NCBI GenBank assembly: GCA_964388715.1
Contig: CAYMBN010000004.1
Coordinates: forward strand, 31,391-95,390
Length of the DNA stretch: 64,000 nucleotides
Direction: 5' to 3'
Source: an uncultured Methanosarcinales archaeon
Lineage (GTDB): Archaea; Nanobdellota; Nanobdellia; Woesearchaeales; CAYMBN01
Positions 4,372-46,732 of the stretch are shown here, one piece after another (position 1 is the stretch's first letter; the number at the start of each line of letters is the position of its first letter). The notes under the pieces were generated by a model, which saw only the letters and a list, made by a program, of their open reading frames with translations, was not told where the DNA came from and made no database searches. The position numbers were made by a program, and so were the translations under genes.

Positions 4372-4375
4372 ATAC

Positions 4376-5001: not shown

Positions 5002-5474
5002 TTGATCTTACTTAAAATTATTTTTTCATTAGTGGGTTCAACCATTAAAAATAGTGCTTTAAGTCCTTTTTCAATTGATGATTCCTCTGCTATTTTATTG
5101 TGTGTATAAGGAAATACAATCCATTTTTTATCAAGCTCTGAAAATGGATTAATAAAATAAATACTTAACAAAGGATTTTTAATCAACTTTTTCCAATTAC
5201 CAGATACAATCTTAAAATTTACTTTGGAATTAAGAACAATTAAACTAACATGTAATTTATCATTCTTTTCTTTTTCCTTTTTTACCTTATCCATAATTAC
5301 ATCAATACTTTTTATTATGGGTTCAATTATAAACAAATGTTCTTTATGCTCAAAATGTACGAACAATTCACTCTCTTTGACTTCAATATTTTTTAATTTT
5401 CTTGTGAGAATATCTTTATTTTTAATATAGTGAGAAGTCCATTCTTTTAAAAAATCAGTAACTCTATTCACCAT
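4998..5474 (-). CDS. Hypothetical protein translationally coupled to queH
   Basis: 158-aa ORF. Its TGA overlaps the queH ATG (ATGA). I see no recognisable motif. Confidence 0.45.
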   Translation of the reverse strand: MVNRVTDFLKEWTSHYIKNKDILTRKLKNIEVKESELFVHFEHKEHLFIIEPIIKSIDVIMDKVKKEKEKNDKLHVSLIVLNSKVNFKIVSGNWKKLIKNPLLSIYFINPFSELDKKWIVFPYTHNKIAEESSIEKGLKALFLMVEPTNEKIILSKIK

Positions 5475-5518
5475 TTTTTAATTTTATTTACTTTTTTAAG
5501 TTTATATACTTTACGGTA

Positions 5519-5528
5519 AATATTTAAA
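5519..5528 (+). promoter_or_regulatory. Archaeal TATA box for the lhr operon
   Basis: An ATATTTAAA box is centred about 29 nt upstream of the ATG at 5553, with no Shine-Dalgarno sequence. This suggests a leaderless transcript. Confidence 0.4.
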
Positions 5529-5552
5529 CAATAATCAGTTTAAGAGCACAAA

Positions 5553-24576: not shown

Positions 24577-24828
24577 ATGTACGATAACTTGACAAAAATA
24601 GTGTTGAAATTCATCAATTCTCAAGACATACCTCTCGAAACAAGAGAGATTATTGATCATGCAAAATCAAGATCAAAAACAACTACAAGGACAAAAGTTC
24701 TCCATAGGCTTAATCTTCTAAGAGGTGATGGCCTTATCAAAGGTAGATTCCTAAGCGCAGGCAAAGGTATCTGGATCTGGTGGAAATTAAATGCATTTAA
24801 AGGTAAAAAAAGAGGTAAGAATGTATAA
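24577..24828 (+). CDS. Small winged-helix DNA-binding protein
   Basis: 83 aa. ETREIIDHAKS....TRTKVLHRLNLLRGDGLIKG....GKGIWIWWK gives a helix-turn-helix plus wing pattern. A TTTAAATA box lies 32 nt upstream. The 3' end overlaps the start of the giant gene by 8 nt. Confidence 0.5.
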   Translation: MYDNLTKIVLKFINSQDIPLETREIIDHAKSRSKTTTRTKVLHRLNLLRGDGLIKGRFLSAGKGIWIWWKLNAFKGKKRGKNV

Positions 24829-30800: not shown

Positions 30801-33800
30801 TAGATGGAAATAATATTAACATAACAAGTCCATTACAAAATACTTATTGTACAGGTGCATATGAAGTAGTAAGAAAATCAACTGTTTCACAAATAGTAAA
30901 AGTACCCCATTATACTGATGTTATTGTTAACTCTGGCGCTTCTCTAAGAGCCGGTGCTTGGGCAGGTTATTCAGGAGGTATTTTAGTATTCAGAGCTCTA
31001 GGAACTGTTAATGTTTTAGGAAGTATTAATGCAAACTCAAGAGGTTTTAGAGGTGGAAGAAGAGGAGAAAGTGGTCAGGACGCTTACCAAGGTGAATCTT
31101 ATAGAGGAAAAGGTGATGATTCTCAATCTGCTGCTGCTAACTTAGGTGGTGGTGGTGATGCAAATGCTGACATTGGATGTGCTGCAGGTGGTGGTGGTGC
31201 TGGTTATGCTACTTCAGGTACTGCTGGTGGTAACTGTAATGCTGGAGCAGGTGGTTCAGGTGGTGCAACCTACGGCAATGTTAACTTATCAGTTATACTT
31301 TTAGGTTCAGGCGGCGGTGGCGGTGAATATGATTCAGATACCACTGTTAAAGGTGGTGCAGGTGGAGCAGGAGGAGGAATTGTCATGCTCTTTGCTAACA
31401 ATATCACTGCTACAAATACAAGTTCAATAACAAGTAAAGGTACAGATGGTGTAACTACAAACAGAGCAGGTGGTGGTGGTGGTTCAGGCGGTTCAATTTA
31501 CTTAGCTGCTAGATACATGGCACTTTCAAATTCAACAAACGCTTCAGGTGGTGCAGGTGGTGGAACTTCTCCTAGTGGAGGTAACGCAGGCCATGGAAGA
31601 ATAAGATTAGATTATATTGGTTTAACAGGTTCATCTTTCCCAGGTTCAGGATATAATGGAACATTTAACTCAACCTTTACAACAAATGATATTGGTTATT
31701 ATAATTATACAATCACAGCACCAGCTGTCACAGGAACATATGAAGTTAAAGTAAATACAACTTATACAAATTATACAGCAGCATTAAACACAACACTCAC
31801 AGTTTCTTCAGGAGATGAAATTAAACCAACAATAAACTTCACATATCCAACAACCAACACAGGAAACTACAGTCAAACCTGGATAGCACTAAACATAACA
31901 GCAGCAGATGATAACTTTAGCATGGTAGTTGGATTCTTATATAACACTACTGCATTAGTAAATGCAACAAATATAACATCAACAACATTATACTTTAATG
32001 TCACAAGCTTACCACAAGGAACTTATTACATTAATGCAACAGCAAACGATACATCCAACAACACAAACTCAACAGAAACAAGAACAATAGTTCTTGATAC
32101 CACTAATCCACTAGTTACAATTACAAAGAATGATACTTTAGTTGAATATGGTTCTGAATCAATTAATGTTAGCTGGACTGTAACAGATAGTACTGCATTA
32201 GCAACAGTTTTATTCAACATAACATACCCAAATAATAGCATGATATTCAATTCAACATCAAGCACAGGATTTGTCAATTTAAATACAAGCAATCTAACAG
32301 CAACAGGAAGATATAATATTAGTGTTTGGGGTAATGACACAACTAATCAATTAAATGTTACAACAGATTCATTTACAGTTAATGATACAATTGCACCAAC
32401 AATAAACTTCACAACTGTTACAACAACAACTGGAAATTATAGTCAAACATGGATTACAGCCAACATAACAGCATCAGATTATGCTCTAGGAACATTAAAT
32501 ATAACCTTATACAACTCAACAGCTTTAGTTAATTCAACAAGCTTAACTTCCTCTCCTCTTTACATAAACTTCACAAACCTAGCAGACACTTCTTATTACC
32601 TCAACGCAACTGTAAATGATACAAGTGGAAACCTAAACTCAACAGAAACAAGGAACATTTCATTAGATAATACAATCCCATTTGTACTCATTGCTAAAAA
32701 CGACTCAATGGTTGAATTTGGCGTTGATGTAATCAATATTAGTTGGACATCAAGTGATGCAATAGCACTCAATTCAACTTTATTTAATATTACAAACATT
32801 AGCAATTCAATTATATACAGTTCAACATCAGCCTCAGGATTAATCAACTTATCTTTAAGCAATCTTACTATAGAAGGAATTTATGTTGTTAATTTATGGT
32901 CAATTGATACAGTTGGTCAAACAAACTTCACAAACACTTCTTTCACAGTTAATGATACATCTGCTCCAGTTGTAACCTTAGTTGCACCAACAAATAACTC
33001 TGGTGACAATGATGGAAACCTATCATTTGTTTACAATGTAACTGATGGCTCTGCTGTAAACAACTGTACTTTATCAATCAATAATGTATCAAACCAAACA
33101 AATAACACAATTACAAAAAATTCAAACCAAACTTTCACATTAAACAATTTACCAATTGCACAATACAATTGGACCATTAATTGTACAGATACACTCAACA
33201 ACACAGGTACAAGTCAAGTAAATAAATTTGTAGTAGTTGAAACAATTAACTTCACAGGAAATACAACAAATCTAAACCAAGTGAACATATCAAACATAAC
33301 TAATCTTATCGTCGACAAACCAAATTATGGTATGATTAATATTACTGAAAGCGTTGACTTAAGTAATGGAACAAACATAACCCAACACGTTAACATAAGC
33401 CACAACAGAATTGAAATAAACACAACAGCATTACCACAATTAAACAAGTCAGCAACATTATATTTACGTAATCTTTCATTTGCAAATCCAAGAATCTTAA
33501 AAGATGATGTTGCTTGTTCATCTACAATTTGTACTGTAATAAGTTACTCTTCAACAACAGGAATATTAGCATTCAATGTAACACAATTCTCAGCTTACTC
33601 TGCTGAAGATTATTGTGGTAATAGTAATTGTGAAGCAACAGAATCATGTTCAACATGTTCAGCTGATTGCGGCTCTTGTACAACCACCACACCAACTCTT
33701 CTCACAGCAGGTAGTGGAGGTTTCTGGGTAAAAGACAAAAAAGAATGTGATGTTGATTCAGATTGTGAACCAGGATTTTACTGCTGGGAAAACAAATGTG

Positions 33801-34468
33801 CTATCTTATTTGACATAAAGATCACTAAGTTCTACACAAAACTTGAACCAGGAAAAATGCTAAACTTTACTTATCTAATAAAAGGCATGGGCCATGTTAA
33901 AGGTGATGTTATAGTAAGCTACTGGCTTGAAAAAGATGATGAAATAGTATCCTCTGGCCAAGATACAATTTATTTAGGAAAATATGAACAAAAAAATCAA
34001 ACATCAGAAATAGTAATACCATCAAATATTAATGAAGGCACTTATTCCTTACATGTTGGTGTTGATTACTTAGGTTATAAAGCAGAATCACAAAGATTAA
34101 TTGAAATAGTTGAAGGCAAAGTAACAATAATAGAACAACCATCACCACCTCCTAAACCGCATAGATTATTTTTCCCAATACTTCAAGACCCAATCAAATT
34201 AACAGCACTTTTAATCTTACTCACTGCTTTATTTACCTTTAATGAATTTATCCACGCAGTTATCTACAAGAACAAAAAAACAAAAAGGAAAGGAAAAAAG
34301 AAAAAAAACAGAAAAAAGAAACCAAGAAAAACTAAAAAGAAGCACAAGAGAAAAATCAAAAAACACACAAAAAAACATAAAATTCAGAAACATAAAAAAA
34401 AGAAAACAAAGCATCATAAGAAAAAAAAGAACACAAAAAAACACAAAAAGAAACACAGAAAAAAGTAA
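24821..34468 (+). CDS. Giant (about 3,215-aa) secreted, C-terminally anchored surface protein. Domains: 3 right-handed beta-helix (PbH1/NosD-like) modules, a jelly-roll/CBM-like domain, Ig-like repeats, a Gly-rich solenoid, a Cys knot, a TM helix and a poly-K/H tail.
   Basis: The signal peptide is MYKKIKILLIFVFLFILNILIANA. Repeated N.I..N.F motifs and NCxIxDF.xGIY are characteristic of parallel beta-helix. GDFETGNLTGWS..WKVSSE..FVDNITI is a CBM/jelly-roll-like block. The C-terminus has CGNSNCEATESCSTCSADCGSC, then the TM LTALLILLTALFTF, then about 65 aa of K/H/R. Confidence 0.85.
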   Translation: MYKKIKILLIFVFLFILNILIANAAPNSIENCSSLSDPGVTYQLISSIDGFGTTCMNITAANVVLDCLYNRIDGIQSGTMYGIHINATNVTVKNCNITDFYDGIYISNSADNATIKNNNFSSNYRGGIYFNNGESNFDNNNITGNTFNGTEWTSGDEIFLKGGNNTISHNTFYSTVMTSNIDLVSSADNIIDNNTFIDCGTYCISLDQGSNRTDITNNFINSSKTAGIYLASAGFNLIHNNTITNHGTSNTVSTASGGITTVSSGNNVKMCNITNNTFSGNKPWAIVFDDPQDGNNKLSGNRFLSKGIRDDNKAFDNDYCPTEFGFGNYYNINNSYYSTGDFNAYFIRPSTDCGPTPNATVISVNNTDIDAWSFGGTVAQYDSLIEGLGNAKTNHLVNLSNALTFIYAPIHDKPALVIYSPNVTLDCNDANITGPDNNNGEGIYFMQNNITVRNCSLQDFDHGIYVDYLANNSLIRGNTFLSNYENGIYFDTQYTTYYDHNITFNLFNGTEWTSGEDIHIRGGNHTISYNNFSSVTVTQNLELVTASSAVLYNNTFLDCGTYCLNLDANSHRVRVTDSLFNSSKIYGLYLGGSDNHTIINNNFTNNGASDTVSHVQGGIGTIASGAGVKDSNITNNTFIGSRPWAIVFDDTDDENNQISGNLFLSKGIRDDDKAFNNDYCPDKPGYGNYYDLNNSYQAATDFRTYYFRPSTDCGPTPNATVITVNSTVTDNWTFGGTIATYDSLTEGLGNAKTYHTVNVTLDSGPFIYDAASTKPTIVIYSPNITLDCGGTNLSGPNDNNGDGIYFMQNNITIRNCSLQDFDHAIWVDYLANNSLIRGNTFLSNYENGIYFDTQYTTYYDHNITFNLFNGTEWSSGEDIHIRGGNHTISYNNFSSVTVTSNIEFITATHAVVSNNRFKDCGTYCINLNGASDYGKILNNRINSSKSYGLYLLSDSDYHLIRGNNFTNHSATNGAGIGSQSSGSGTQYDNITENLFQDNYWHIRLDDNNDDFNNIWKNNFMNNVSTNVEDDGAGNFYNLSNIGNYWAIYDSAGEGCNDANNNGRCDSAFTADDAGNAVDNFPFTTQDGWYLPVFNTVECFNTTAWTPCANIKFNNTIEAVRVNCTSVDATVNNATFELVNNPDSSTKYNTAFANLSSADYWIFNSTNLLIQDSGVWNWTIICNTTIGSYSSNYTTWTVPWGTLSVTWISPTGNSTVSPNMTSDFQVNVSCIDGECGDINLTLDPEQANPKPIILDAYVKPTKVKVGDKMQVFVHVQDNLGIESVIAEMPYENGKDIIKLSLTNGTIYDGLWEQTWKVHNTKPINYTTLITITNNDNQKIYTEIVWEDPTITNGDFETGNLTGWSTGGNQNWTTNTTFVQEGSYSAQAGKISTNQITWINQSVTLTVNGTLTFFWKVSSETNYDFLLFCNNTPACTRTSGFQDRISGSVDWTMQSYNLSNGTHILHWAYAKDGSGNTANDTGFVDNITITLSNTGPSVNSVSTSPSPFSNGYNVTCKANVTDPDSDTIQYVNFTIYDSNGGMYVNNVNGTSNGDLWNSSYFVPNATGIITCNLTAYDGITTTTNSTTFYSGNKTGAISTTIGAIPFYTTSSNPQTCQNLKSGNSCNKTWTVNATGKVSSTWEFYAIADAVNYSNVISVEGSKINITITDLSEPTIIIDNPVNNTNLTAGTTWSWMNITTNEPSICQFNKTNDFTFGINGTYFSSNDNISHFFNYSSLSSGPFYTTYYRCNDTSGNTNTLPAAHTFGVHPTDITSPTVTLLRPLDASTLRSNLVQFNFTPFDFHLDSCVLWTNTTGIWKKNTTVSSPTNNSNNSVSLNITDGYYLWNVVCNDTSNNNGTASNYSFTFEALHLNISISLNQTSVSPNASVLVSGYLNLSDGTNISNHPVDVYLNGTKLTTNNSYLGDGSDGSIIIDSANTVVNNYTHITTNETAGSIQITVSSSSQFSVGDEILVIQMQDKSCGTSAGTYEFTNISVIDGNNINITSPLQNTYCTGAYEVVRKSTVSQIVKVPHYTDVIVNSGASLRAGAWAGYSGGILVFRALGTVNVLGSINANSRGFRGGRRGESGQDAYQGESYRGKGDDSQSAAANLGGGGDANADIGCAAGGGGAGYATSGTAGGNCNAGAGGSGGATYGNVNLSVILLGSGGGGGEYDSDTTVKGGAGGAGGGIVMLFANNITATNTSSITSKGTDGVTTNRAGGGGGSGGSIYLAARYMALSNSTNASGGAGGGTSPSGGNAGHGRIRLDYIGLTGSSFPGSGYNGTFNSTFTTNDIGYYNYTITAPAVTGTYEVKVNTTYTNYTAALNTTLTVSSGDEIKPTINFTYPTTNTGNYSQTWIALNITAADDNFSMVVGFLYNTTALVNATNITSTTLYFNVTSLPQGTYYINATANDTSNNTNSTETRTIVLDTTNPLVTITKNDTLVEYGSESINVSWTVTDSTALATVLFNITYPNNSMIFNSTSSTGFVNLNTSNLTATGRYNISVWGNDTTNQLNVTTDSFTVNDTIAPTINFTTVTTTTGNYSQTWITANITASDYALGTLNITLYNSTALVNSTSLTSSPLYINFTNLADTSYYLNATVNDTSGNLNSTETRNISLDNTIPFVLIAKNDSMVEFGVDVINISWTSSDAIALNSTLFNITNISNSIIYSSTSASGLINLSLSNLTIEGIYVVNLWSIDTVGQTNFTNTSFTVNDTSAPVVTLVAPTNNSGDNDGNLSFVYNVTDGSAVNNCTLSINNVSNQTNNTITKNSNQTFTLNNLPIAQYNWTINCTDTLNNTGTSQVNKFVVVETINFTGNTTNLNQVNISNITNLIVDKPNYGMINITESVDLSNGTNITQHVNISHNRIEINTTALPQLNKSATLYLRNLSFANPRILKDDVACSSTICTVISYSSTTGILAFNVTQFSAYSAEDYCGNSNCEATESCSTCSADCGSCTTTTPTLLTAGSGGFWVKDKKECDVDSDCEPGFYCWENKCAILFDIKITKFYTKLEPGKMLNFTYLIKGMGHVKGDVIVSYWLEKDDEIVSSGQDTIYLGKYEQKNQTSEIVIPSNINEGTYSLHVGVDYLGYKAESQRLIEIVEGKVTIIEQPSPPPKPHRLFFPILQDPIKLTALLILLTALFTFNEFIHAVIYKNKKTKRKGKKKKNRKKKPRKTKKKHKRKIKKHTKKHKIQKHKKKKTKHHKKKKNTKKHKKKHRKK
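25005..28100 (+). repeat. Three tandem coding modules of about 1,080-1,083 bp (360-361 aa beta-helix units); the third is partial
   Basis: TTCAATGGCACAGAATGG recurs at 25259, 26339 and 27422. The segments 26222-26356 and 27305-27439 are identical over 135 nt. Confidence 0.85.
31826..32965 (+). repeat. Tandem 570-bp (190-aa) coding duplication encoding paired Ig-like domains
   Basis: CCAACAATAAACTTCACA occurs at 31826 and 32396. The protein blocks PTINFT..TGNYSQTWI..NITA.D and VNDT.AP repeat with a 190-aa period. Confidence 0.8.
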
Positions 34469-38818: not shown

Positions 38819-39130
38819 AGTAGGGAAATGCCTAACCAACGGTGTTCAATACACTGAGGAAAGTCTGCCCACTACAAAAAGGCTACCTTTCCTAAAAAAA
38901 GGATCCAGAAATGGATGGCAACTGCTCAGAAACGAGACCACCTTTAAAATGAGATGATGCAGTGAAGCATCTGGTAACAGATGTTAGCTAACCTGTTGAT
39001 GTCTTTAAAGGAACGGATGAAACGGCAAGTCCTTAGCCAGTGCAAGTCAATTATTGGCGCTAAGTAGAATGTTAGGAAAGACTATCTGTCTAACAGAGTC
39101 TTACAAAAGGCAGCTTACAATTTCCCTACT
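38819..39130 (+). ncRNA. rnpB: RNase P RNA (about 312 nt)
   Basis: GAGGAAAGTCTGCCCAC matches CR-I (GAGGAAAGUCCGGGC). ACAGAGTCTTACAAAAGGCAGCTTACA matches CR-V (ACAGAA...GGCUUA). AGTAGGGAAAT (38819-38829) pairs perfectly with ATTTCCCTACT (39120-39130) as helix P1. A T8 run follows, and the region is locally GC-richer. Confidence 0.78.
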
Positions 39131-39683
39131 TCTTTTTTTTAACAGAAACTTTATTCTTTGTTATAATAGAATTAGGAATATGAATTATTTCCTTTTTTCT
39201 GGTTTGAATATGTGTTTCAATCAAACTAATCTTAATAACTTTACCTTTTACATCTTGAACCTTAATAACATCACCCAATTTAATCATTTCTCTCTTGTAA
39301 ATGCTTAAACCAGCAATCAAATTAGGAATATAATCCTTCACACTCAAAATAACAGAAACAAGTACAATAATCACAATTGCCCAAGCAATCATATTAAATG
39401 CAGCTATATCCAATCCAAGCTGTTTTAGTGCTGTTATAAAAGTAAAAAAATATATCAACCAAGAAACAATTTTCCCAATATTTTTCTCAACAGGCTTTTT
39501 CATACCAGCCTTTTTCAACAAAACGTTTAACTCAATCTCTTTTAACAGTTTTTCAACAAGTTTTCCAACAATTTTCCCAATAGCAAACCCAATAAGTAAT
39601 ATTACAACCGCAGCAATTATGTTAATAAGATACCTATTAATAAACCCATCAACAACACTAATTCCAGTTATTGTTTTATTCAT
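39126..39683 (-). CDS. Small MscS-family mechanosensitive channel-like protein
   Basis: Three TM segments are followed by IKLGDVIKVQDVKGKVIKISLIETHIQTRKKEIIHIPNSIITKNKV, which matches the MscS beta-domain pattern (GD.I.v....G.V..I.l..T.i......i.iPNs). Confidence 0.65.
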   Translation of the reverse strand: MNKTITGISVVDGFINRYLINIIAAVVILLIGFAIGKIVGKLVEKLLKEIELNVLLKKAGMKKPVEKNIGKIVSWLIYFFTFITALKQLGLDIAAFNMIAWAIVIIVLVSVILSVKDYIPNLIAGLSIYKREMIKLGDVIKVQDVKGKVIKISLIETHIQTRKKEIIHIPNSIITKNKVSVKKKK

Positions 39684-39838
39684 ATTTGAATTATTTTTTT
39701 TAAATTATATAAACTTAACTAAAAACCTATTTTCAGTCGAAAAACACAGAAACCTTTAAATACATCTTCCCCTTAAACTATTTAAATATTACTATCAGAG
39801 GGTTAAAATTATTATCCCTAAAAAACGAGGTGGGTTTA

Positions 39839-42800
39839 ATGAGTAGAGTTCTAAATAGATTAATAAATTTAATTTTAATTATGAGTTTGTTCATAATAAT
39901 TATCAACACTGTTTCTGCAGAAAATTGTTGGGAATATGACGCTACTGACAAAGACACTTGTGAAGCTGCAGACACTGATAATGATGGTAGTGCTGACGAC
40001 TGTTCATGGGATTCATGGGGTTATTATTGTATGGAAAAAGGTTGCTGGGATCATTGGACCCAAGATAGTTGTAGTACAGCAAACGCCTCTGGTTGTTTCT
40101 GGCAAACAGAAGCAAACATGGGCTGGGATGACACAACAGGTTGGTGTGAAGAAAGCGCTGATTGTTGGAATTATAATACAGACAATGGTTGTGCTAATGT
40201 AACTGGTTGTCAATGGAAATCCTCCTCATGTCAAGGCCCTTCTGAATGTTCTGATTATAATGATGAAACAAATTGTCATAATTCTGGTTATGGTTGTTGG
40301 TGGGATTATGGTGATTATTGTTATAACCCGGGTTGTTGGGATTATAAAGCAAAAACAAACTGCGAAACAAACAGTTGTTCTTGGGTATCAAATAGCTATT
40401 GCTCTGAAGCAGGTAACAACTGTTGGAATTATGGTAATCAAACAAGTTGTATTGCTGTAGATGGTTGTTCCTGGGAAACATATGGAGATAATGCTGATGA
40501 AGGTTGGTGTTATAAAAAAGGTTGCTGGGAATATAGTACAAATACTACTTGTTTAGCAGACCCAAGCGGCAATTGCGGTTGGGATACTACTTATACTTAT
40601 TGTTATGAAAAAGGTTGCCACCATTATGGGACCAATGATTCAACAACAGGTTGTGTAGCAAACCCTGATGAAGTTATTGGTGGCTGTCAATGGACTCAAA
40701 ATGGATTATGTAAAGAACCAACTTGTTCTGATTATTCTGATAATACAACTTGTACAACAAAAGTAGGTTGCTTCTGGTCAGGTACTGATAATACAACAGG
40801 AACTTGTAAATGGGAAGGTTGTTGGACTTATAATTCTGATTCTACTTGTAGTAACACAACAGGTTGTCAATGGAAACTTGCTTCATGTAATGGTGATTCA
40901 GGTTGTTCAGATTATACTTCATATTCAACTTGTACAGACGCTACTGAATCATGTTGGTGGTCATGGGGTAATTATTGTACTTCTCTTAATTGTTGGAGTT
41001 CACAATTTAGTAATAATCAAACAGCTTGTGAAACAAACACCCAAGCTCAAGGTTTAGATTGTAAATGGGATTCTTACTGGGGAGAATGCTGGGAAAAATG
41101 GTGTGGTGAATATTCCACAGAAAATGCTTGTAATACAAGCATTTCAGGAGATTGTAAATGGATTGATGGCTGGTGTCAAGAAGAAAATTGTTGGGGTTAT
41201 TCAGATACTGCCACCTGCGCAAGTAAGGGTTGTTCTTGGGATGCTGATTATGGATATTGTGAACAATCTGCTGCAGCAAGCTGTTATGACTTAAATGAAT
41301 CATTATGTGGAAGTGCTGCTTATAATAATTCATGTAGATGGGATCAATGGGGTAGTTATTGTACAGAAAAAGGTTGTTGGGACCTTGGAGATAATGTTAG
41401 TTGTACAAACGCAAACCTTTCAATTGAATGTGCTTGGACAGAAACATCAGAAGGATGGTGTGAAGATTCAGGAACACAATGCTGGGATCATTATTTACAA
41501 ACAGATTGTGAAGCAAATAATTGTACATGGGATTCATGGGGTAGTTATTGTATGACACCTGGTTGTTGGGATCACTGGACAGAACCAACATGTGGAAATG
41601 ATTCTGATTGTCAATGGAAAACATCTTCAAACTCTGGCTGGGACTGGGGCTGGTGTGAAAAAAGATCTTGCTGGAATTGGGATAACACAAATGCAAGTGC
41701 ATGTGTAAACACAAGCTTTAGTGAATACAGTCTTAATTGTTCATGGGATGCAGGTGATGCTGGTGAAGGTTGGTGTTATGGTCCATGGCAAAATAAATGT
41801 TGGTACAATGATTCATACATGGGTGGAAATGAATCAGCTTGTGTAACAAACAACATTAGTGGGGTAAATTGTTCATGGAAAGCAGTAACAGGATGGTGTT
41901 ATGAATCAAGAAAAACCTTTAGTGATTTTAATACAGAAGGTGAATGTCTAAAAAGTGGTTGGGGTAAATGGAATGGTACAGAATGTATTACCTCAGGTGA
42001 AACAATGCAAAATTCAGGTTGTTGGATATTTGATGGAAGAGCAGCAGAATGTGTAGCTGTAAGAGGTTGTACTTACAATTCAACAAGCAGAGAATGTGAA
42101 GGACTAGCAACAGAAGGAATACAATGTAATAATATTACAAAATTAGTAGTGAATAATGAAACAAATCAATCACTTTGTGATGTAATTCCAATGTTATCCA
42201 CTTGTTGTGTATGGGAAGCTGGCCAGTGTCAACTTACTTATGATACAACTTGTTGGGATCAAATGGCAGAAGCACCAGTAGGAGCAACAAACTGTATGGA
42301 TTATAATGCAATTGATAGTCCAACTTTATGTAATCAAATAACAGGAGCTCCTTGGTACATGCCATGTAACTGGAATAATGTAAGTGGACAATGTGAATTC
42401 AATGATGATATGGCCACAGACCTTGATAATATTAAAACAAAAAGAGAATGTGAATCAATAGGTGGTACATGGAAAACAGAAAATGTTTGTGGTACTGATA
42501 ATTGTGCATTTGTAAAACAATGGTGTGAAATGGAATCCGGCAGTTCTACATATGGTTGTGATGCATCTTGTTGGGCTTGTAATAGTTCAGAAGCATGTAG
42601 AGCATCTAAAAAAGATTATTGTCAATGGACAACAGACGGAAACATCTCACAAGGTGGGTTCTGTGATATTCCAGACACATTAGAAATACATGGAGATTGT
42701 GACAAATTTTGTGGGTCATGTGAACATTATTCAGGAGGAGATTCTACTCCTGAAAAAGCATGTAAAGCAAGTGCAGCACAATGTAAATGGGACAATGCAA

Positions 42801-45800
42801 CAGAAAACTGTGTTCAGAAAAAAAGTAAAGGATGTTCTGATGATTGTTTCTACTGTTTTGACAAAGAAGGTTGTAGTTTAAATGGTGGTGGTGCACAAGG
42901 AACATGTAAATGGGATGACTTTGATGGCATGTGTAAACCAACAGAATTTGATAGAGAAATCTGTTTTGATGGAGAAGATAATGATAACAATGATTTAATA
43001 GATTGTGAAGATCCAACATGTATGTTTGATCCATTCTGTGGTGGAAGTGAAATGGATGACTGTTGGAATTATTTAGATAATGCAAGTTGTGCTCAAAACA
43101 ATTGTTCTTGGTTCCAAGATCCTTGGACAAATACCAACAGATGTGGTGTAAAAGGTGAAAATTGTTGGATATATGAAACAAACAGTACAGGTTGTATAGG
43201 AGATATTAATTGCCAATGGTATAGTGACACACATTGTGCAATAAACCACACAAAATCAGACACTTGTTTCAAAAAAACAACTCAAACAGGTTGTGAAGCT
43301 GTTAGTTCTTGTAAATGGGAATCAAACTCATATAGTCCACAAGGAGGATGGTGTGATTTTGCTCCATTTGAATGTGGATGGAATCAAACATTACAACAAA
43401 GTAAAGGAAATTGTGAAAGTAATTCTTTATGTGCATGGGTGACAGATCCATTTAGTGGTACTGGTTGGTGTGAAACAAAATGTTTTGCAAGAAACAGTAG
43501 TGGTGGTCAAATTTACAAAACCCAGGCCACTTGTAATGCTGCTATTGCAGGAGGAATATGTGAATGGTCAACAGGTTGGTGTGAACCAAATAGCACAAGA
43601 ATAGGAGCAGTTTCTGGTGAAGATTGTGCATTCTATGATAATAATATTACACAATGTAATAATCAACCAGGGTGTGCATGGTTTGAACAAGCAATGATGG
43701 GTTCTGATTTTGAACATGGCATGGGTGGAGGTTTCTTTGGCTCACAATGTGACGAAAAAATGTCAATAAATTGTTGGGACTTTAGAAACCAATCAGCATG
43801 TAATGGCTCATTAAGAAATGGTTCAGCTAATGCAACAGGAGATGGAGATGCTTGTAGATGGGTTACAGAAGGAACTTGGTCATGGTGTGAACCATTAGGA
43901 ATGCATTGTGGTCCAATGCACGCACCTATTAATTCAACTACAGATCAACCACAATTAAATAATGCAACATGTGCAGGAGATCAATATTGTACTCTTGCTG
44001 AATATGAAGTAGGTAGAGTTGGTTGTATATCAAAGTGTCATAATACAACTTTAGACGAAACAACTTGTGGCCAAGTTGCAAATGGAAACTATTGTGTCTG
44101 GGGAGGTTCAGGCGCAGGAGGAGGAGCCGGCGGTGGCGGCGGTGACTTAACAATGGGTGGCTGGTGTGATCCAGTTGGTTCTCAAAAAATATTCAAAGAT
44201 ATGGAAGGAGGAGCACCTCATATGCTTGCCAATGATGTATGTGGTTCAGGCACAGCAGATAATGCTACTAAAGAATGGGTTGACATTTGTGGTTTAGGCA
44301 TTAAAGAAATGAATGAAGACTATGGAATGGGTATGGGACTACAAGCAATGACTCTTGCAGCTGCCTGTAATGGTGAAACATTATGGGATGAAACAACAGG
44401 ATCAGGAAGAAAAACAACAAAAGGATTCTGGTATCTTGACACAGATGGTGTTGAAACAGGAGGATGTTCATCTGATGATGGTGCTAATACTGGATTTGAA
44501 TTCAAATTCATAGCAAAATGGGAATGGTCAGATAGTGGATTAAAAGAAAAATTAACAGCAAAAAGATGTTTAAGTGGAAACTGGACAGCAGCTAACATCC
44601 GTCTAGATACTCATACAAAGAAAATGTGTCAAGAACTTCAAGGAATGCTTATTACAGTTAAAAAAGCAGACTTAACAAATCTTCCAGCATTGTTTAAGCC
44701 AGAAAGTTCAATGAGAATATATGCAGCTTCAGCTGGAGAAAACAACACAGCACAATTACCTTCAGATACTGTTGGTCCTGGTTATTACAAATCAGGAACA
44801 GTTGACTTTAAAACAGAAGATTGTGCAGCAATTGGAAAAGTTGACAAAGATACTGATGGATTCTATGCTTATGAAGATCCAGATTGTAAACAAATGTATC
44901 TTGATGAAGATAAAGGATTCAAATCAATTGAAGACTGTAAAACAGCACATGATGATGATATGAATGGGTTAACTAATTGTGCAGACCCTGCATGTAAAGA
45001 CGAACCAGTTTGTGGAGGATCTTTAGCACCAAATTCAAGTGATCATACAACACCAGAAATTAAAACACCAGATGTAAATGAACTTAAAACAAAAGCAGTT
45101 ATAGACTTTAAGACAGATGAACGTGCAAATGGAACTCTATTATTTTACAAAACAGATAGTTCATGTAGCTTGCTCAATGCAACTATCAGAGATAGGGGTT
45201 TATGGGCAGGAAATACTTCAAACAATTACACAAAGTACAACTTCAACAAAAAAATACCTATTAACAACTTAACAGCTAACCAAGACGCACTTAACTATTC
45301 ATTAAGTAATGGCACAACCTACTTTTACAAACTAAAAGTATGTGACATTTCAAGCAATTGTGCTCAATCTGGTTGTTTAAACTTCACAACAAAAGCAACA
45401 GCACAAACAAAAACAATGAAATTTACTGACCCTGATGCAAACCAAGCATGGACAATTGATGTAAACGCAACAGGAGATTATTCTGCACAAGGTGGTGGTT
45501 GTGGAACATCAAGTAATAATAGTGGTAGCTTAGGAAGTTTAATTGACCCTGAAGTAAATACACAGATTAATTTACAACAAACACAATCTGGTTCAGGTGG
45601 AAATATCACCGTAGGCATAGGCGGTATTGACACTTCAGCATCAAAGTCAATAGCAAACCTTGACATGGATGTTGGTACAGCTACTGGTCATGAATCAGGA
45701 TCAACAGAAAATTATGTTTGGATCAATGAAAGTGGTTGGGGTGGAGATCAAGGACTTCATACACAAGGTGCACCTGATAATGTCACTATTATTATGCCAG

Positions 45801-46732
45801 GAAGCGATACATATCTTTACGATTGTGAACAAATAGGCAGCAATGGTGCAGTTACAAATTGTACAGATATAACTGATTATGCAACAAGAAGTTATAATGA
45901 AACAACAGCAATGACAACATGGACAATTCCAAATCCAACAGCTGACTTGTGGTCTTACATTGTACCACAAACACCTTCAACAGCAACACCAGATACTTCT
46001 TCATCCTCTGGAGGAGGAGGCGGAGGCGGTGGCGGTGCCGCTGTTACAACAGAAGCAATTGAAGGAGAAAGTGAATCCAGAACATGGGACAAACTAAAAG
46101 CTGGTCAAGACGTATTGTTAGTATTAAGCAAAGATGCAATCCCAGTAAAAGAAATCAAAATAAAAGTTAAGAATGCAGCAACTAATGCTGAACTAAGAGT
46201 TGCAGAACTAACACAAGCACCAACAACAGATGAAACATTAACTACAGTGTACAAATATCTAAAAATGACATTTAGTAATGTAGCAGACTCTGATCTTGAA
46301 TCAGCAGAAGTTACATTTAAAGTAACAAAATCTTGGTTAAATGAACAAGGATTCACCAGAGATGATGTTGTACTAAAGAGATACAAAGATGGTAAATGGA
46401 CAGAACTTGCAACAGAAGTAGTTTCACAAGATACAGCTAAAATAACATTTAAATCAACAACACCTGGCTTCAGTTATTTTGCAGTTGGAATCAAGAAAAC
46501 AGCAGAAGAAGCTAAAAAAGCAGCAGCAGAAACAGGGGAAGAAGTTGTTGAAGAAGAACAAGTAGCAGAAGAAGTATCAGAACAAGAAGAAGTAACAGAA
46601 GAAAAGGAAACCAAGAAACTTAACTTACAACAAACAATTATCTGGATTGTGGTAATACTTGTTGTTTTAATAGCTGTTCTATTAATTATAGAACATAAAT
46701 ACAAAAACCAGAAAATCAAAAAGAAAAAATAA
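39839..46732 (+). CDS. Giant (about 2,297-aa) secreted, C-terminally anchored protein. It is dominated by a Cys/Trp-rich mini-repeat array, followed by an FN3-like domain and a PGF-pre-PGF-like domain.
   Basis: A GAGGTG Shine-Dalgarno sequence lies upstream of the ATG at 39839, and the signal peptide is ...IIIINTVSA|ENC. There are dozens of units such as CSWDSWGYYCMEKGCWDHWTQDSC. The C-terminal block ...VTKSWLNEQGFTRDDVVLKRYKDGKWTELAT...TTPGFSYFAVG is followed by an acidic linker, the TM IIWIVVILVVLIAVLLII and KKKK. Confidence 0.85.
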   Translation: MSRVLNRLINLILIMSLFIIIINTVSAENCWEYDATDKDTCEAADTDNDGSADDCSWDSWGYYCMEKGCWDHWTQDSCSTANASGCFWQTEANMGWDDTTGWCEESADCWNYNTDNGCANVTGCQWKSSSCQGPSECSDYNDETNCHNSGYGCWWDYGDYCYNPGCWDYKAKTNCETNSCSWVSNSYCSEAGNNCWNYGNQTSCIAVDGCSWETYGDNADEGWCYKKGCWEYSTNTTCLADPSGNCGWDTTYTYCYEKGCHHYGTNDSTTGCVANPDEVIGGCQWTQNGLCKEPTCSDYSDNTTCTTKVGCFWSGTDNTTGTCKWEGCWTYNSDSTCSNTTGCQWKLASCNGDSGCSDYTSYSTCTDATESCWWSWGNYCTSLNCWSSQFSNNQTACETNTQAQGLDCKWDSYWGECWEKWCGEYSTENACNTSISGDCKWIDGWCQEENCWGYSDTATCASKGCSWDADYGYCEQSAAASCYDLNESLCGSAAYNNSCRWDQWGSYCTEKGCWDLGDNVSCTNANLSIECAWTETSEGWCEDSGTQCWDHYLQTDCEANNCTWDSWGSYCMTPGCWDHWTEPTCGNDSDCQWKTSSNSGWDWGWCEKRSCWNWDNTNASACVNTSFSEYSLNCSWDAGDAGEGWCYGPWQNKCWYNDSYMGGNESACVTNNISGVNCSWKAVTGWCYESRKTFSDFNTEGECLKSGWGKWNGTECITSGETMQNSGCWIFDGRAAECVAVRGCTYNSTSRECEGLATEGIQCNNITKLVVNNETNQSLCDVIPMLSTCCVWEAGQCQLTYDTTCWDQMAEAPVGATNCMDYNAIDSPTLCNQITGAPWYMPCNWNNVSGQCEFNDDMATDLDNIKTKRECESIGGTWKTENVCGTDNCAFVKQWCEMESGSSTYGCDASCWACNSSEACRASKKDYCQWTTDGNISQGGFCDIPDTLEIHGDCDKFCGSCEHYSGGDSTPEKACKASAAQCKWDNATENCVQKKSKGCSDDCFYCFDKEGCSLNGGGAQGTCKWDDFDGMCKPTEFDREICFDGEDNDNNDLIDCEDPTCMFDPFCGGSEMDDCWNYLDNASCAQNNCSWFQDPWTNTNRCGVKGENCWIYETNSTGCIGDINCQWYSDTHCAINHTKSDTCFKKTTQTGCEAVSSCKWESNSYSPQGGWCDFAPFECGWNQTLQQSKGNCESNSLCAWVTDPFSGTGWCETKCFARNSSGGQIYKTQATCNAAIAGGICEWSTGWCEPNSTRIGAVSGEDCAFYDNNITQCNNQPGCAWFEQAMMGSDFEHGMGGGFFGSQCDEKMSINCWDFRNQSACNGSLRNGSANATGDGDACRWVTEGTWSWCEPLGMHCGPMHAPINSTTDQPQLNNATCAGDQYCTLAEYEVGRVGCISKCHNTTLDETTCGQVANGNYCVWGGSGAGGGAGGGGGDLTMGGWCDPVGSQKIFKDMEGGAPHMLANDVCGSGTADNATKEWVDICGLGIKEMNEDYGMGMGLQAMTLAAACNGETLWDETTGSGRKTTKGFWYLDTDGVETGGCSSDDGANTGFEFKFIAKWEWSDSGLKEKLTAKRCLSGNWTAANIRLDTHTKKMCQELQGMLITVKKADLTNLPALFKPESSMRIYAASAGENNTAQLPSDTVGPGYYKSGTVDFKTEDCAAIGKVDKDTDGFYAYEDPDCKQMYLDEDKGFKSIEDCKTAHDDDMNGLTNCADPACKDEPVCGGSLAPNSSDHTTPEIKTPDVNELKTKAVIDFKTDERANGTLLFYKTDSSCSLLNATIRDRGLWAGNTSNNYTKYNFNKKIPINNLTANQDALNYSLSNGTTYFYKLKVCDISSNCAQSGCLNFTTKATAQTKTMKFTDPDANQAWTIDVNATGDYSAQGGGCGTSSNNSGSLGSLIDPEVNTQINLQQTQSGSGGNITVGIGGIDTSASKSIANLDMDVGTATGHESGSTENYVWINESGWGGDQGLHTQGAPDNVTIIMPGSDTYLYDCEQIGSNGAVTNCTDITDYATRSYNETTAMTTWTIPNPTADLWSYIVPQTPSTATPDTSSSSGGGGGGGGGAAVTTEAIEGESESRTWDKLKAGQDVLLVLSKDAIPVKEIKIKVKNAATNAELRVAELTQAPTTDETLTTVYKYLKMTFSNVADSDLESAEVTFKVTKSWLNEQGFTRDDVVLKRYKDGKWTELATEVVSQDTAKITFKSTTPGFSYFAVGIKKTAEEAKKAAAETGEEVVEEEQVAEEVSEQEEVTEEKETKKLNLQQTIIWIVVILVVLIAVLLIIEHKYKNQKIKKKK

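What the first reader, a model, noticed from the sequence alone, without database searches (positions are those of the whole stretch)
39839..44170. About 1,440-aa array of an unrecognised Cys/Trp-rich mini-repeat
Behind a signal peptide the protein is an almost uninterrupted series of roughly 25-35-aa units. Examples are CSWDSWGYYCMEKGCWDHWTQDSC, CWWDYGDYCYNPGCWDYKAKTNC, CRWDQWGSYCTEKGCWDLGDNVSC and CTWDSWGSYCMTPGCWDHWTEPTC. An approximate consensus is C-x-W-x(3-9)-[YW]-C-x(3,4)-G-C-W-x-[YHL]-x(4-6)-C. My hand count, which is approximate, gives about 177 Cys in the protein and about 158 in this region, with Trp similarly enriched. The units are diverged at the DNA level, so this is an old, maintained array rather than an assembly artefact. 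It does not match any Cys-repeat family I know (EGF, VSP CxxC, TSP, furin-like). Such a disulfide-dense extracellular rod would be remarkable for an anaerobe-like reduced archaeon.
Basis: partly seen in the sequence, partly recalled or inferred. Interest (0 to 1): 0.7.

Follow-up and report, generated by a model that had tools for sequence, protein, structure and literature searches.

The report
Disulfide-stapled repeat stalk, DPANN surface protein
A 2,300-residue, membrane-anchored surface protein of a tiny DPANN archaeon carries 20 tandem four-cysteine mini-domains, each held by two disulfide bonds; they are distant relatives of the coat-antigen repeat of the ciliate Paramecium, and the protein belongs to an undescribed family found in at least 226 archaeal species.

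Summary
ORF 39830-46732 encodes 2,300 aa with exactly 177 Cys (158 in the flagged region) and 106 Trp, against about 1% Cys in the other ORFs of the window.

The true unit is about 30 aa with 4 Cys, family consensus CWNYDNQTSCENGSGCTWKSDGGWCEEKG. Twenty units run in perfect tandem over aa 33-705. About nine degenerate copies and other Cys modules fill aa 706-1447.

Cysteines are lost only in pairs: C1+C3 in 8 of 220 parsed units, with no genuine single loss. Cys1665 and Cys1686 co-occur perfectly. This indicates real disulfides, C1-C3 and C2-C4. AlphaFold models each unit as a short helix plus a beta-hairpin.

The repeat is not wholly unrecognised. It is a distant relative of Pfam PF01508 (Paramecium surface antigen domain). 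PF01508 matches 49 of 78 real six-unit windows and 0 of 78 Cys-fixed shuffles, and the archaeal profile finds a genuine Paramecium antigen at E=1.8e-39. The fold looks PSI-like. The query itself scores below the Pfam cutoff.

The protein has a signal peptide, beta-sandwich domains, a PGF-pre-PGF domain and a C-terminal membrane anchor. Its family spans Woese-, Pace-, Nano-, Aenigmat- and Altiarchaeota. It most likely forms a rigid, glycosylated stalk or coat on the cell surface. I rate it a new variant of a known kind.

The parts
39830..46732 (+). Whole gene: 2,300-aa (about 248 kDa mature, pI 4.3) Cys/Trp-rich surface protein
   Evidence: ORF; composition; 58 homologs; pI and mass. The alternative ATG start at 39839 gives a better signal-peptide n-region.
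39830..39919 (+). N-terminal signal peptide (MGLMSRVLNRLINLILIMSLFIIIINTVSA | ENCW)
   Evidence: Read from the sequence: basic n-region, hydrophobic core and a V-S-A cleavage motif. No predictor was run.
39926..41944 (+). Strict tandem array of 20 four-Cys units (aa 33-705): C-W-x-Y-x(4-9)-C-x(4-13)-C-x-W-x(3-15)-C-x(3-5)
   Evidence: 80 Cys fall in 20 groups of four. All 20 units match the unit HMM at i-E 4.6e-12 to 7.5e-7. AF2 on units 3-8 gives pLDDT 77, with a helix plus beta-hairpin per unit. 23 N-x-S/T sequons. Units are orthologous by position with relatives.
41945..43060 (+). Family-conserved, non-array Cys-rich core (aa 706-1077), including the PWYMPC motif
   Evidence: Nearly all Cys are invariant across 36-57 homologs. 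AF2 shows helix plus hairpin modules at pLDDT 55-85. No Pfam hit.
42557..42934 (+). Three 6-Cys modules with C-x(2-3)-C-x2-C ... C-x-W ... C (aa 910-1035)
   Evidence: Read from the sequence. In the AF2 model each has a helix or helices followed by a hairpin (model residues 205-332). The Cys pattern sits closer to canonical PSI than the 4-Cys unit does; this is inference.
42956..43045 (+). Acidic double-disulfide repeat-like motif 1 (EICFDGEDNDNNDLIDCEDPTCMFDPFCGG)
   Evidence: NCBIfam NF033662 scores 25.4 bits over 2 stretches, below the 41-bit cutoff. The motif is invariant in the family and served as a search pattern.
43061..43900 (+). About 7 degenerate copies of the 4-Cys unit (aa 1078-1357)
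   Evidence: The family-trained unit HMM hits them at 11.7-24.1 bits. The query-only HMM hits are weak.
43901..44170 (+). Last Cys-rich stretch plus Gly-rich linker (aa 1358-1447); end of the flagged region
   Evidence: 8 Cys. Low pLDDT in the AF2 model across the linker (residues 720-755).
44171..46009 (+). Conserved Cys-poor beta-rich domains (aa 1448-2060), including an FN3-like domain and acidic disulfide repeat 2 (44930-45013)
   Evidence: AF2 pLDDT is 75-93 for aa 1465-1855. Foldseek gives generic tandem beta-sandwich, FN3 and adhesin matches at E 2.6e-5 to 1e-3. Cys1665 and Cys1686 co-occur perfectly. NF033662 best stretch is aa 1701-1728.
46088..46486 (+). PGF-pre-PGF domain (aa 2087-2219)
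   Evidence: NCBIfam TIGR04213, E=3.6e-26, 92 bits against a 28-bit cutoff.
46634..46690 (+). C-terminal transmembrane anchor (TIIWIVVILVVLIAVLLII), followed by a basic tail ending KKKK and preceded by an acidic linker
   Evidence: Read from the sequence. No predictor was run.

Best explanation
The region encodes the outer, N-terminal part of a membrane-anchored cell-surface glycoprotein that is conserved across DPANN archaea.

After Sec export and signal-peptide cleavage, the protein stays tethered by its C-terminal transmembrane helix. Moving outwards from the membrane, it has an acidic linker, a PGF-pre-PGF domain, beta-sandwich domains and a conserved Cys-rich core. At the far end sit 20 tandem mini-domains of about 30 residues.

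Each mini-domain is a short helix packed against a beta-hairpin and stapled by two disulfides, C1-C3 and C2-C4. Conserved Trp and Tyr residues next to the cysteines form a tiny hydrophobic core. An N-x-S/T sequon often lies on the first loop.

Strung together, the units should form a stiff, protease-resistant, glycan-covered stalk or coat layer that projects tens of nanometres from a very small cell. I think it is a structural envelope or coat component that also forms the contact surface towards the host or the environment.

In evolutionary terms, the unit is a simplified member of the module class that includes the Paramecium surface-antigen repeat (PF01508) and has a PSI-like fold.

Shown: the repeat anatomy, Cys pairing by covariation, conservation, and the distant PF01508 link. 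Moderately supported: the helix-hairpin fold. Inferred: the rod shape, glycosylation, and the coat or contact function.
For: Anatomy:
- 20 in-register 4-Cys units.
- Family consensus built from 1,179 units in 58 proteins: C10 100%, C16 99%, W18 94%, C25 97%. 83% of units have exactly 4 Cys.

Disulfides:
- Of 220 strictly parsed units, 212 are canonical and 8 lack exactly C1 and C3 (Ala/Pro and Phe/Tyr instead). There are no genuine single-Cys losses (the one regex hit is a GCWW parsing artefact) and no C2+C4 losses. One C1+C3 loss is the P0007 unit orthologous to query unit aa 169-197, which keeps both Cys.
- Cys1665 and Cys1686 are both present in 32 sequences, both absent in 22, and never present alone.
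- 88 of 95 Cys in aa 706-1905 are at least 80% conserved at 33-63% overall identity.

Fold:
- AF2 pLDDT is 77, with a helix plus hairpin in each unit. The same pattern recurs through aa 730-1400 in the second model.
- Top Foldseek PDB hits are almost all plexin or semaphorin PSI domains, though with E of 0.4 or higher.

Relation to PF01508.

Surface location:
- Signal peptide and C-terminal TM helix, read from the sequence.
- PGF-pre-PGF domain at 92 bits.
- 66 sequons against 30 +/- 4.7 expected; pI 4.3.
- Beta-sandwich, FN3 and adhesin-like structural matches.

Structural rather than variable role:
- Relatives in at least 226 GTDB species genomes across several DPANN phyla and Altiarchaeales.
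- Housekeeping neighbours: GyrA, a THUMP methyltransferase, RNase P RNA, MscS, a DRG GTPase.
- Exactly 20 units in each of the four closest full-length relatives compared, with 15-19 of 20 units matching best at the same position.
Against: - No experimental data on localisation, glycosylation or redox state.
- pTM is only 0.48-0.55, so the relative orientation of units, and therefore the rod shape, is not established. I had no model coordinates, so I could not check S-S geometry.
- The PSI resemblance is below significance in both sequence (8.5-12.3 bits against a 23.1 cutoff) and structure (Foldseek E at least 0.37).
- The PF01508 link is weak for the query itself (at most 15.7 bits), and hhalign gives only 27% probability.
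- Many DPANN archaea live in anoxic water, and no disulfide-forming enzyme was identified in the window. How the disulfides form and survive is unexplained.
- Unit number ranges from about 0 to 36 across deep clades, so the array is dispensable for whatever the conserved core does.
- A coat role and an adhesin role cannot be separated with sequence data.
Confidence: 0.7

Rival explanations
1. It is mainly a host-attachment adhesin. The distal repeat array binds a ligand on the host cell of an episymbiotic DPANN archaeon, and the protein is not a general envelope or coat component.
For: DPANN archaea are typically host-dependent and carry giant surface proteins proposed to mediate host contact (PMC10266531). 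The C-terminal domains resemble bacterial adhesins and carbohydrate-binding modules: Bap, SiiE, Sas6. The array is at the membrane-distal end, and its length differs between deep clades. Eukaryotic PSI domains occur in receptors.
Against: The family is very widely conserved, with a fixed architecture and housekeeping neighbours. Units are orthologous by position, with no sign of the rapid diversification expected at a host-recognition surface. No recognisable lectin or enzyme domain. This rival overlaps with the main explanation and does not exclude it.
Confidence: 0.25
2. The resemblance to PF01508 and PSI is convergent. Small four-Cys repeats with an aromatic next to a Cys arose independently, so the archaeal unit is a new fold family of its own.
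For: The query scores below the Pfam cutoffs. hhalign probability is only 27%. Foldseek has no hit at E<=1e-3. The PDB sequence-profile search finds nothing at E<=10. Protist units score only about 8 bits each and lack W2 and the aromatic before C4. Cys-rich repeats are prone to spurious cumulative scores.
Against: The shuffle that keeps Cys positions removes the PF01508 signal completely, 0 of 78 against 49 of 78. The match therefore depends on non-Cys residues in register. The similarity is reciprocal: the archaeal profile finds a genuine Paramecium antigen at E=1.8e-39, and the Cys and Trp columns align in register. Two independent methods, Pfam and Foldseek, both point to PSI-type modules.
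Confidence: 0.25
3. The cysteines bind metals or stay as free thiols, in the manner of a metallothionein, zinc-ribbon or Fe-S scaffold suited to a reduced habitat, rather than forming disulfides.
For: Relatives come from oxygen-poor waters and groundwater (record titles). There are four Cys per unit. The window contains no Dsb-type enzyme among the ORFs I scanned (only 8 ORFs were scanned).
Against: Cys are lost strictly in pairs, C1+C3 and 1665+1686, and are replaced by hydrophobic residues while the other pair stays. This is the signature of disulfides, not of a four-ligand metal site. The 4-Cys unit has no CxxC knuckles. The protein is exported (signal peptide, TM anchor). Its closest relatives are extracellular disulfide-rich proteins.
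Confidence: 0.05
4. The ORF is an assembly or annotation artefact, or a pseudogene, and not a real protein.
For: None found, beyond the unusual composition and a local rise in GC.
Against: There is an intact 6.9-kb ORF, and the same protein is present in the public collection on 2 contigs (P0001). 58 intact homologs at 25-58% identity keep the same architecture. Cys columns are invariant. Relatives occur in at least 226 genomes.
Confidence: 0.01

Closest known systems
Paramecium surface antigen domain (Pfam PF01508, Paramecium_SA), the 8-Cys period of ciliate immobilisation antigens
   Same: Both are giant (over 2,000 aa), very Cys-rich extracellular proteins tethered at the C-terminus and built almost entirely from short periodic Cys repeats. 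One archaeal unit aligns to half of the 62-position profile and two units to the whole profile. PF01508 is the only Pfam family that recurrently matches the archaeal repeat, and the match disappears when the non-Cys residues are shuffled. The archaeal profile recovers a genuine Paramecium antigen. The motifs C-x-W-D and C...C align in register.
   Different: The archaeal period is 4 Cys in about 30 aa with strongly conserved W2, Y4, W18 and an aromatic at 24. In Paramecium every second half-period lacks the Trp. The query scores below the Pfam gathering cutoff. The anchor is a TM helix after a PGF-pre-PGF domain, not GPI. The gene is conserved with units orthologous by position, whereas the Paramecium antigens form a multigene family with mutually exclusive expression and variable central repeats (PMC4235209). 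The host is an archaeon.
PSI (plexin-semaphorin-integrin) domain, Pfam PF01437
   Same: Both are small disulfide-rich extracellular modules with a short helix followed by a beta-hairpin that carries a C-x-W motif. The top Foldseek PDB hits for the archaeal model are PSI domains of plexins and semaphorins. PSI gives weak Pfam hits. UniRef names the Paramecium relative a PSI domain-containing protein. From my memory of the Met PSI structure, the inferred C1-C3 and C2-C4 pairing corresponds to PSI disulfides 1-4 and 3-6; I did not test this here.
   Different: PSI has about 50 residues and 8 Cys (4 disulfides), including C-x2-C and C-G-W-C. The archaeal unit has about 30 residues and 4 Cys. All scores are below significance: 8.5-12.3 bits against a 23.1 cutoff, and Foldseek E at least 0.37. 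PSI domains normally occur singly or a few per protein, not as 20 or more tandem copies.
Giant Cys-rich repeat proteins of Euglenozoa (Diplonema papillatum KAJ9442392.1 and KAJ9463393.1, Rhynchopus, Namystynia, Bodo saltans CUG90296.1, Apiculatamorpha)
   Same: These are the best-scoring non-archaeal hits of the repeat profile, at E down to 7.7e-211. They share the skeleton C-x2-Y-x5-C-x5-C-x-W-[DN]...C, hold 7-13% Cys, and are 4,000-7,000 aa long.
   Different: Per-unit scores are only about 8 bits, against 15-28 for archaeal units. They lack W2 and the aromatic before C4 and have a conserved Asp at position 13. They are eukaryotic and uncharacterised, and share no similarity with the DPANN core domains.
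Archaeal surface (S-layer type) glycoproteins carrying the PGF-pre-PGF domain (NCBIfam TIGR04213)
   Same: Signal peptide, acidic and sequon-rich ectodomain, a PGF-pre-PGF domain near the C-terminus, and a C-terminal membrane anchor.
   Different: Archaeal S-layer proteins are generally Cys-poor (my own knowledge). No lattice-forming ability has been shown for this protein. It has no PGF-CTERM sorting signal after the domain, only a plain TM helix and a basic tail (sequence).
SPEARE-type giant surface proteins of Nanohaloarchaeota
   Same: Both are giant, Sec-exported, membrane-anchored surface proteins of DPANN archaea thought to face the host (PMC10266531).
   Different: Those are 8,000-9,400 aa, built from Ig/FN3 domains plus a VirB4-like ATPase, specific to their lineage and not Cys-rich. 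They share no homology with this family.

Membership tests
Pfam PF01508 Paramecium_SA | Score at or above the Pfam gathering cutoff (21.2 bits) | tested here: not met
   The full-length query gives no hit. Its nine 4-unit windows give 12.2-15.7 bits in 4 of 9. At about the gathering level (E<=4.6e-4), 9 of 78 family windows pass, none of them from the query.
Pfam PF01508 Paramecium_SA | Similarity that goes beyond Cys composition and spacing, and holds in both directions | tested here: met
   49 of 78 real windows match against 0 of 78 Cys-fixed shuffled windows. The archaeal profile hits Paramecium sonneborni CAD8096596.1 at E=1.8e-39; that protein scores 898.7 bits on PF01508. hhalign is weak: E=6.8e-4, probability 27%.
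Pfam PF01508 Paramecium_SA | Eight-Cys period throughout a large surface protein | tested here: inconclusive
   The period here is 4 Cys in about 30 aa. Two units span the 62-position profile, but successive units are equivalent rather than alternating.
Pfam PF01437 PSI domain | Score at or above the gathering cutoff (23.1 bits) | tested here: not met
   8.5-12.3 bits, E 0.23-3.5. Only 2 of 78 windows match at E<=10.
Pfam PF01437 PSI domain | About 50 residues with 8 Cys forming 4 disulfides, including C-x2-C and C-x-W-C | tested here: not met
   The unit has 4 Cys in about 30 aa, with no C-x2-C and no C-x-W-C. The three 6-Cys modules at aa 910-1035 do have C-x2-C and C-x-W (sequence).
Pfam PF01437 PSI domain | Helix plus beta-hairpin fold that superposes on solved PSI domains | tested here: inconclusive
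   The AF2 units are helix plus hairpin. Most top Foldseek PDB hits are PSI domains, but with E 0.37-7, about 40 aligned residues and rmsd 3-5 A.
NCBIfam TIGR04213 PGF-pre-PGF domain proteins | Domain score above the curated cutoff (28 bits) | tested here: met
   92 bits, E=3.6e-26, aa 2087-2219.
NCBIfam NF033662 acidic double-disulfide repeat proteins | Score above the curated cutoff (41 bits) | tested here: not met
   25.4 bits over 2 stretches. The motifs at aa 1043-1072 and 1701-1728 look alike and are conserved in the family.
Archaeal S-layer / surface-coat protein | Exported, membrane-tethered, glycosylated ectodomain | tested here: inconclusive
   Signal peptide, TM anchor and a 2.2-fold sequon excess are all read from sequence. 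No predictor and no experiment.
Archaeal S-layer / surface-coat protein | Abundant protein that forms a regular lattice or continuous coat | not testable with these tools
   This needs proteomics or cryo-ET. The only indirect support is the wide conservation.
DPANN Cys-rich PGF-pre-PGF giant protein family (defined here) | Full-length homology, including the conserved core motifs (PWYMPCxW, EICFDGxDND) | tested here: met
   58 homologs at E from 0 to 3e-73, most aligning over a third or more of the query length (30-99%). More than 80 invariant columns. At least 226 genomes.

The most novel reading that the evidence does not exclude
This family is the conserved main surface-coat (S-layer-equivalent) protein of DPANN archaea. 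Its disulfide-stapled unit is truly homologous to the PSI / Paramecium-antigen module of eukaryotes. That would mean this class of extracellular Cys module is either ancient and archaeal in origin, or was exchanged between episymbiotic archaea and protists. It would also mean that organisms living largely without oxygen and without a known Dsb system build an envelope held together by about 85 disulfides per protein, which implies an undescribed extracellular thiol-oxidation route.
Probability: 0.2. Interest if true: 0.8.

Novelty: new variant of a known kind. Interest (0 to 1): 0.6.

Why it matters
DPANN archaea make up a large share of archaeal diversity, and almost nothing is known about their envelopes or how they touch their hosts. 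This work defines a large, conserved, currently unannotated surface-protein family present in at least 226 species genomes, and gives its repeat a consensus and a covariation-supported disulfide map.

It also connects the repeat to the Paramecium coat-antigen / PSI class of eukaryotic extracellular modules, with related giants in diplonemids and kinetoplastids. This raises a concrete question about the origin or transfer of these modules across domains.

It poses a testable biochemical problem as well: how does a reduced-genome archaeon from oxygen-poor water form and maintain dozens of extracellular disulfides? On the practical side, the unit HMM could annotate about 1,000 protein clusters that Pfam now leaves blank. 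HMMER's bias correction hides the match in full-length sequences.

Tried and rejected
- Pfam on the full protein and on four large segments gave nothing significant. The RIFIN, DUF6548 and MASE10 hits are low-complexity noise over the acidic/TM tail.
- A PDB sequence-profile search with the 6-unit alignment gave 0 hits at E<=10.
- Foldseek of the repeat model against the viral BFVD library gave nothing at E<=1e-3, only single-unit local matches to giant-virus orphan proteins.
- Foldseek of the 1,200-aa model gave only generic beta-sandwich hits.
- My first covariation test used local HMM alignments and was uninformative, because truncated alignments dropped incomplete units. I replaced it with anchored regex parsing.
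- The search for related loci with the repeat alignment failed because no stretch was conserved enough. It worked with the core alignment.
- Synteny: a relative on a 346-kb contig has different neighbours (an S8 peptidase and a beta-helix protein). There is no conserved operon to lean on.
- Literature: searches on DPANN or Woesearchaeota with cysteine-rich, S-layer, disulfide or PGF-pre-PGF found no description of this family. The Altiarchaeum hami papers never mention cysteine, so I did not equate the hamus protein with this family. SPEARE proteins are unrelated.
- I considered EGF, TNFR, furin-like, Giardia VSP and metallothionein-like repeats and rejected them. None appears among the Pfam hits, and the unit lacks their Cys spacings.

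Full report
**1. The observation**

The window has a 6.9-kb ORF at 39830-46732 (+) that encodes 2,300 aa. The hand counts are exact: 177 Cys (7.7%) and 106 Trp (4.6%) overall, and 158 Cys and 90 Trp in aa 4-1447. The other ORFs of at least 200 aa in the window have 0-4.5% Cys, mostly below 2%.

All four quoted peptides are present. CxW occurs 35 times against 9.7 +/- 2.8 in shuffles, and CW 23 times against 10.0 +/- 2.8. Units share on average 37% protein identity and 58% DNA identity, and Tandem Repeats Finder sees no DNA array. The array is therefore old and is not an assembly artefact. Archaeal RNase P RNA lies just upstream at 38820-39129, so the host is an archaeon.

**2. Anatomy of the repeat**

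Counting cysteines from the first one after the signal peptide, the first 80 fall into 20 consecutive groups of four with no exception, over aa 33-705 (window 39926-41944). Units are 28-49 aa long. An HMM built from them matches all 20 at i-E 4.6e-12 to 7.5e-7.

I iterated the HMM over 58 homologs and collected 1,179 units. The consensus is CWNYDNQTSCENGSGCTWKSDGGWCEEKG. Conservation by position is C1 88%, W2 67%, Y4 49%, C10 100%, C16 99%, W18 94%, an aromatic at 24, and C25 97%. 83% of units have exactly four Cys, and 41% carry an N-x-S/T sequon between C1 and C2.

Beyond aa 705 the sequence is still Cys-rich but mixed:
- a family-conserved core at aa 706-1077, with three 6-Cys C-x(2-3)-C-x2-C...C-x-W...C modules and an acidic double-disulfide-like motif;
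- about seven degenerate units at aa 1078-1357;
- a last Cys stretch and a Gly linker up to aa 1447.

**3. The cysteines are disulfide pairs**

I parsed the 58 homologs with regular expressions anchored on the Trp and Tyr positions. This gave 212 canonical units and 8 units that lack exactly C1 and C3, replaced by Ala/Pro and Phe/Tyr. No unit has genuinely lost a single Cys (the one regex hit is a GCWW parsing artefact), and none has lost C2 and C4. From the different positions and proteins involved, I judge these to be at least four independent events. One is the P0007 unit orthologous to query unit aa 169-197, which has both Cys.

In the C-terminal domain, Cys1665 and Cys1686 are both present in 32 sequences, both absent in 22 and never alone. 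Across aa 706-1905, 88 of 95 Cys are at least 80% conserved in proteins only 33-63% identical, while most other residues vary. This pattern indicates structural disulfides, C1-C3 and by elimination C2-C4. It argues against a four-ligand metal site.

**4. Fold**

I ran AlphaFold2 on units 3-8, using an alignment of 78 in-register six-unit windows from the family. It gave mean pLDDT 77 and pTM 0.48. Every unit is a short helix ending at C2, followed by a beta-hairpin that carries C3-x-W and the aromatic-C4.

A second model covers aa 706-1905 (pLDDT 69). It repeats the helix-hairpin pattern through the Cys-rich part and predicts beta-rich domains at pLDDT 75-93 for aa 1465-1855.

Foldseek against the PDB found nothing significant for the repeat model. 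Even so, the top hits are almost all PSI domains of plexins and semaphorins (E 0.37-7, about 40 residues, 20-24% identity). The larger model gives only generic tandem beta-sandwich, FN3 and adhesin matches at E 2.6e-5 to 1e-3. The viral structure library gave nothing.

**5. Is it a known family?**

Pfam and NCBIfam on the full protein recognise only the C-terminal PGF-pre-PGF domain (TIGR04213, 92 bits) and a sub-threshold acidic double-disulfide repeat. Full-length relatives also get no Pfam hit, and a PDB sequence-profile search finds nothing.

Short windows scanned one by one behave differently. PF01508, the Paramecium surface antigen domain, matches 49 of 78 family windows with a best E of 1.3e-7. 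At about the gathering level, 9 of 78 match, and PF01508 is the only family to do so.

As a control, I kept every Cys in place and shuffled all other residues. That gave 0 of 78 matches, so the signal is not just Cys spacing. In the query itself, 4 of 9 windows hit PF01508 at 12.2-15.7 bits, below the 21.2 cutoff. One unit aligns to half the profile and two units to the whole profile.

The similarity holds in both directions. An exhaustive search of 1.84 billion representative proteins with the archaeal repeat profile found 1,019 clusters at E<=1e-3 and 94 at E<=1e-30. One is Paramecium sonneborni CAD8096596.1 at E=1.8e-39. It is a genuine surface antigen, scoring 898.7 bits on PF01508 with 33 copies, and UniRef names it a PSI domain-containing protein. 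A direct hhalign comparison is weak, at E=6.8e-4 and 27% probability, but the Cys and Trp columns align in register.

PF01508 models the eight-Cys periods of the giant GPI-anchored coat antigens of Paramecium (PMC4235209). I conclude that the archaeal unit is a distant, simplified relative of that module class with a PSI-like fold. It is not a formal Pfam member at current thresholds. Convergence remains possible, and I give it about 25%.

**6. Distribution**

A homolog search with the full protein found 58 related proteins of 1,450-3,040 aa, each with 4.7-9.7% Cys. Where sources name them, they are PGF-pre-PGF domain-containing or hypothetical proteins of Woesearchaeota, Aenigmatarchaeota, Nanoarchaeia or DPANN.

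A scan of GTDB species genomes with two conserved core motifs found relatives in at least 226 genomes. These include Woese-, Pace-, Nano- and Aenigmatarchaeota, a MAG labelled Nanohalarchaeota, and Altiarchaeales IMC4. MAGs labelled uncultured Methanosarcinales also carry it; I suspect these labels are wrong. The closest relatives, at 59-60% identity, are Saanich Inlet MAGs.

Outside archaea, the best repeat-profile hits are 4,000-7,000-aa proteins of diplonemids and kinetoplastids. Their units share the C-x2-Y-x5-C-x5-C-x-W-[DN]...C skeleton but score only about 8 bits each.

**7. Stability of the array**

Each of the four closest full-length relatives compared (P0002-P0005, 55-58% identical) also has exactly 20 units, and 15-19 of the query's 20 units score best against the unit at the same position. 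Deeper clades have about 0 to 36 units. The array is therefore fixed architecture within a lineage and is not a fast-shuffling antigenic repeat.

The gene's neighbours are housekeeping genes: GyrA, a THUMP methyltransferase, another methyltransferase, RNase P RNA, MscS and a DRG GTPase. A relative has different neighbours, so synteny adds nothing.

**8. Mechanism**

- **Shown by sequence:** an N-terminal signal peptide, a C-terminal TM helix with a basic tail behind an acidic linker, an acidic ectodomain (pI 4.3), and 66 sequons against 30 +/- 4.7 expected.
- **Shown by covariation:** two disulfides per unit.
- **Moderately supported:** the helix-hairpin fold.
- **Inferred:** the 20 units form a stiff, glycosylated, protease-resistant stalk or fringe at the membrane-distal end. 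The protein would be a structural coat component and the contact surface of the cell.

A pure host-adhesin role is the main functional rival, and sequence alone cannot exclude it. I found no description of this family in the searchable literature. SPEARE-type DPANN giants are unrelated.

**9. Verdict**

The repeat is real, ancient and disulfide-based, and sits in an archaeal surface protein. It is not entirely without relatives.

I rate it a new variant of a known kind: an archaeal four-Cys version of the Paramecium-antigen / PSI-like module, in a pan-DPANN protein family that current databases leave unannotated. The unresolved points are how extracellular disulfides form in organisms from oxygen-poor habitats, and whether the cross-domain similarity reflects common descent, transfer or convergence.

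Noticed in passing
window 24791-34468 (+): A second giant ORF of 3,225 aa with a signal-peptide-like N-terminus, right-handed beta-helix and NosD repeats (Pfam Beta_helix E=3.4e-31, NosD E=2e-15) and a strongly basic His/Lys tail. It is not Cys-rich (1.7%). It is probably another surface or adhesin-type protein. A relative's locus (L001) also has a beta-helix/NosD protein near its copy of the Cys-rich gene.
   Followed up: partly
window 38820-39129 (+): Archaeal RNase P RNA (Rfam RF00373, 154 bits) lies directly upstream of the gene. Its 3' end abuts or slightly overlaps the 3' end of the MscS-like gene on the minus strand (39126-39683).
   Followed up: partly
window 40001-46000: GC content rises to 37-38% against about 30% in the flanks, and GC skew is strongly positive (+0.27 to +0.31) across the gene. 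The likely cause is its amino-acid make-up (TGT, TGG, GGN and GAN codons). Cys codons are 165 TGT to 12 TGC.
   Followed up: partly
window 40163-40522 and 40820-41161 (units 3-4 and 10-11): Units 3-4 (CWNYNTDNGC...CQGPSE / CSDYNDETNC...) resemble units 10-11 (CWTYNSDSTC...CNGDSG / CSDYTSYSTC...) more than they resemble other units. Cross-matches between these positions also appear in comparisons with relatives. This suggests an ancient duplication of a block about seven units long.
   Followed up: no
window 42956-43045 and 44930-45013: Two copies of an acidic Asp-rich four-Cys motif (C-x-D-G-x-D-N-D-x(5)-D-C-x-D-x2-C-x(5)-C-G-G) that resembles calcium-binding motifs. NCBIfam acid_disulf_rpt scores below its cutoff. 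The motif is invariant across the family.
   Followed up: partly
window 15129-18086 (+): A 985-aa secreted-looking protein with a C-terminal hydrophobic anchor and no Pfam hit at E<=1e-3. The N-terminal motif (NEIMYNPPG.DN..EWFEIYN) looks to me like a lamin-tail-type domain.
   Followed up: no
L009 (MCBF01000001.1, Candidatus Altiarchaeales IMC4), match 2001-5534: The Altiarchaeales SM1-type genome encodes a homolog of the conserved core, 33% identical over about 1,160 residues. Altiarchaeum is known for hami appendages and a double membrane. I did not examine how this protein relates to those structures.
   Followed up: no
L005, L019, L020, L024, L026-L028 and others: Many TPA-assembled MAGs labelled uncultured Methanosarcinales archaeon carry this DPANN-type gene, some on 0.6-0.8 Mb contigs. 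The taxonomic labels of these records are probably wrong.
   Followed up: no
Foldseek BFVD hits A0A2H4UUR4 (Bodo saltans virus), W5SA33 (Pithovirus), A0A6N1NK45 (Tupanvirus): Single-unit local structural matches of 27-33 residues, rmsd 1.5-1.8 A and 27-37% identity to orphan proteins of giant viruses, one of which infects Bodo saltans. The Bodo genome also encodes giant proteins with the related repeat. None of these matches is statistically significant.
   Followed up: no
Pfam behaviour on P0009, P0010, P0072, P0096 and the query (against 45): HMMER's composition and bias correction removes every PF01508 hit when whole proteins are scanned, yet the same sequences hit when cut into windows of about 190 aa. 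Standard annotation pipelines will therefore systematically miss this repeat.
   Followed up: yes
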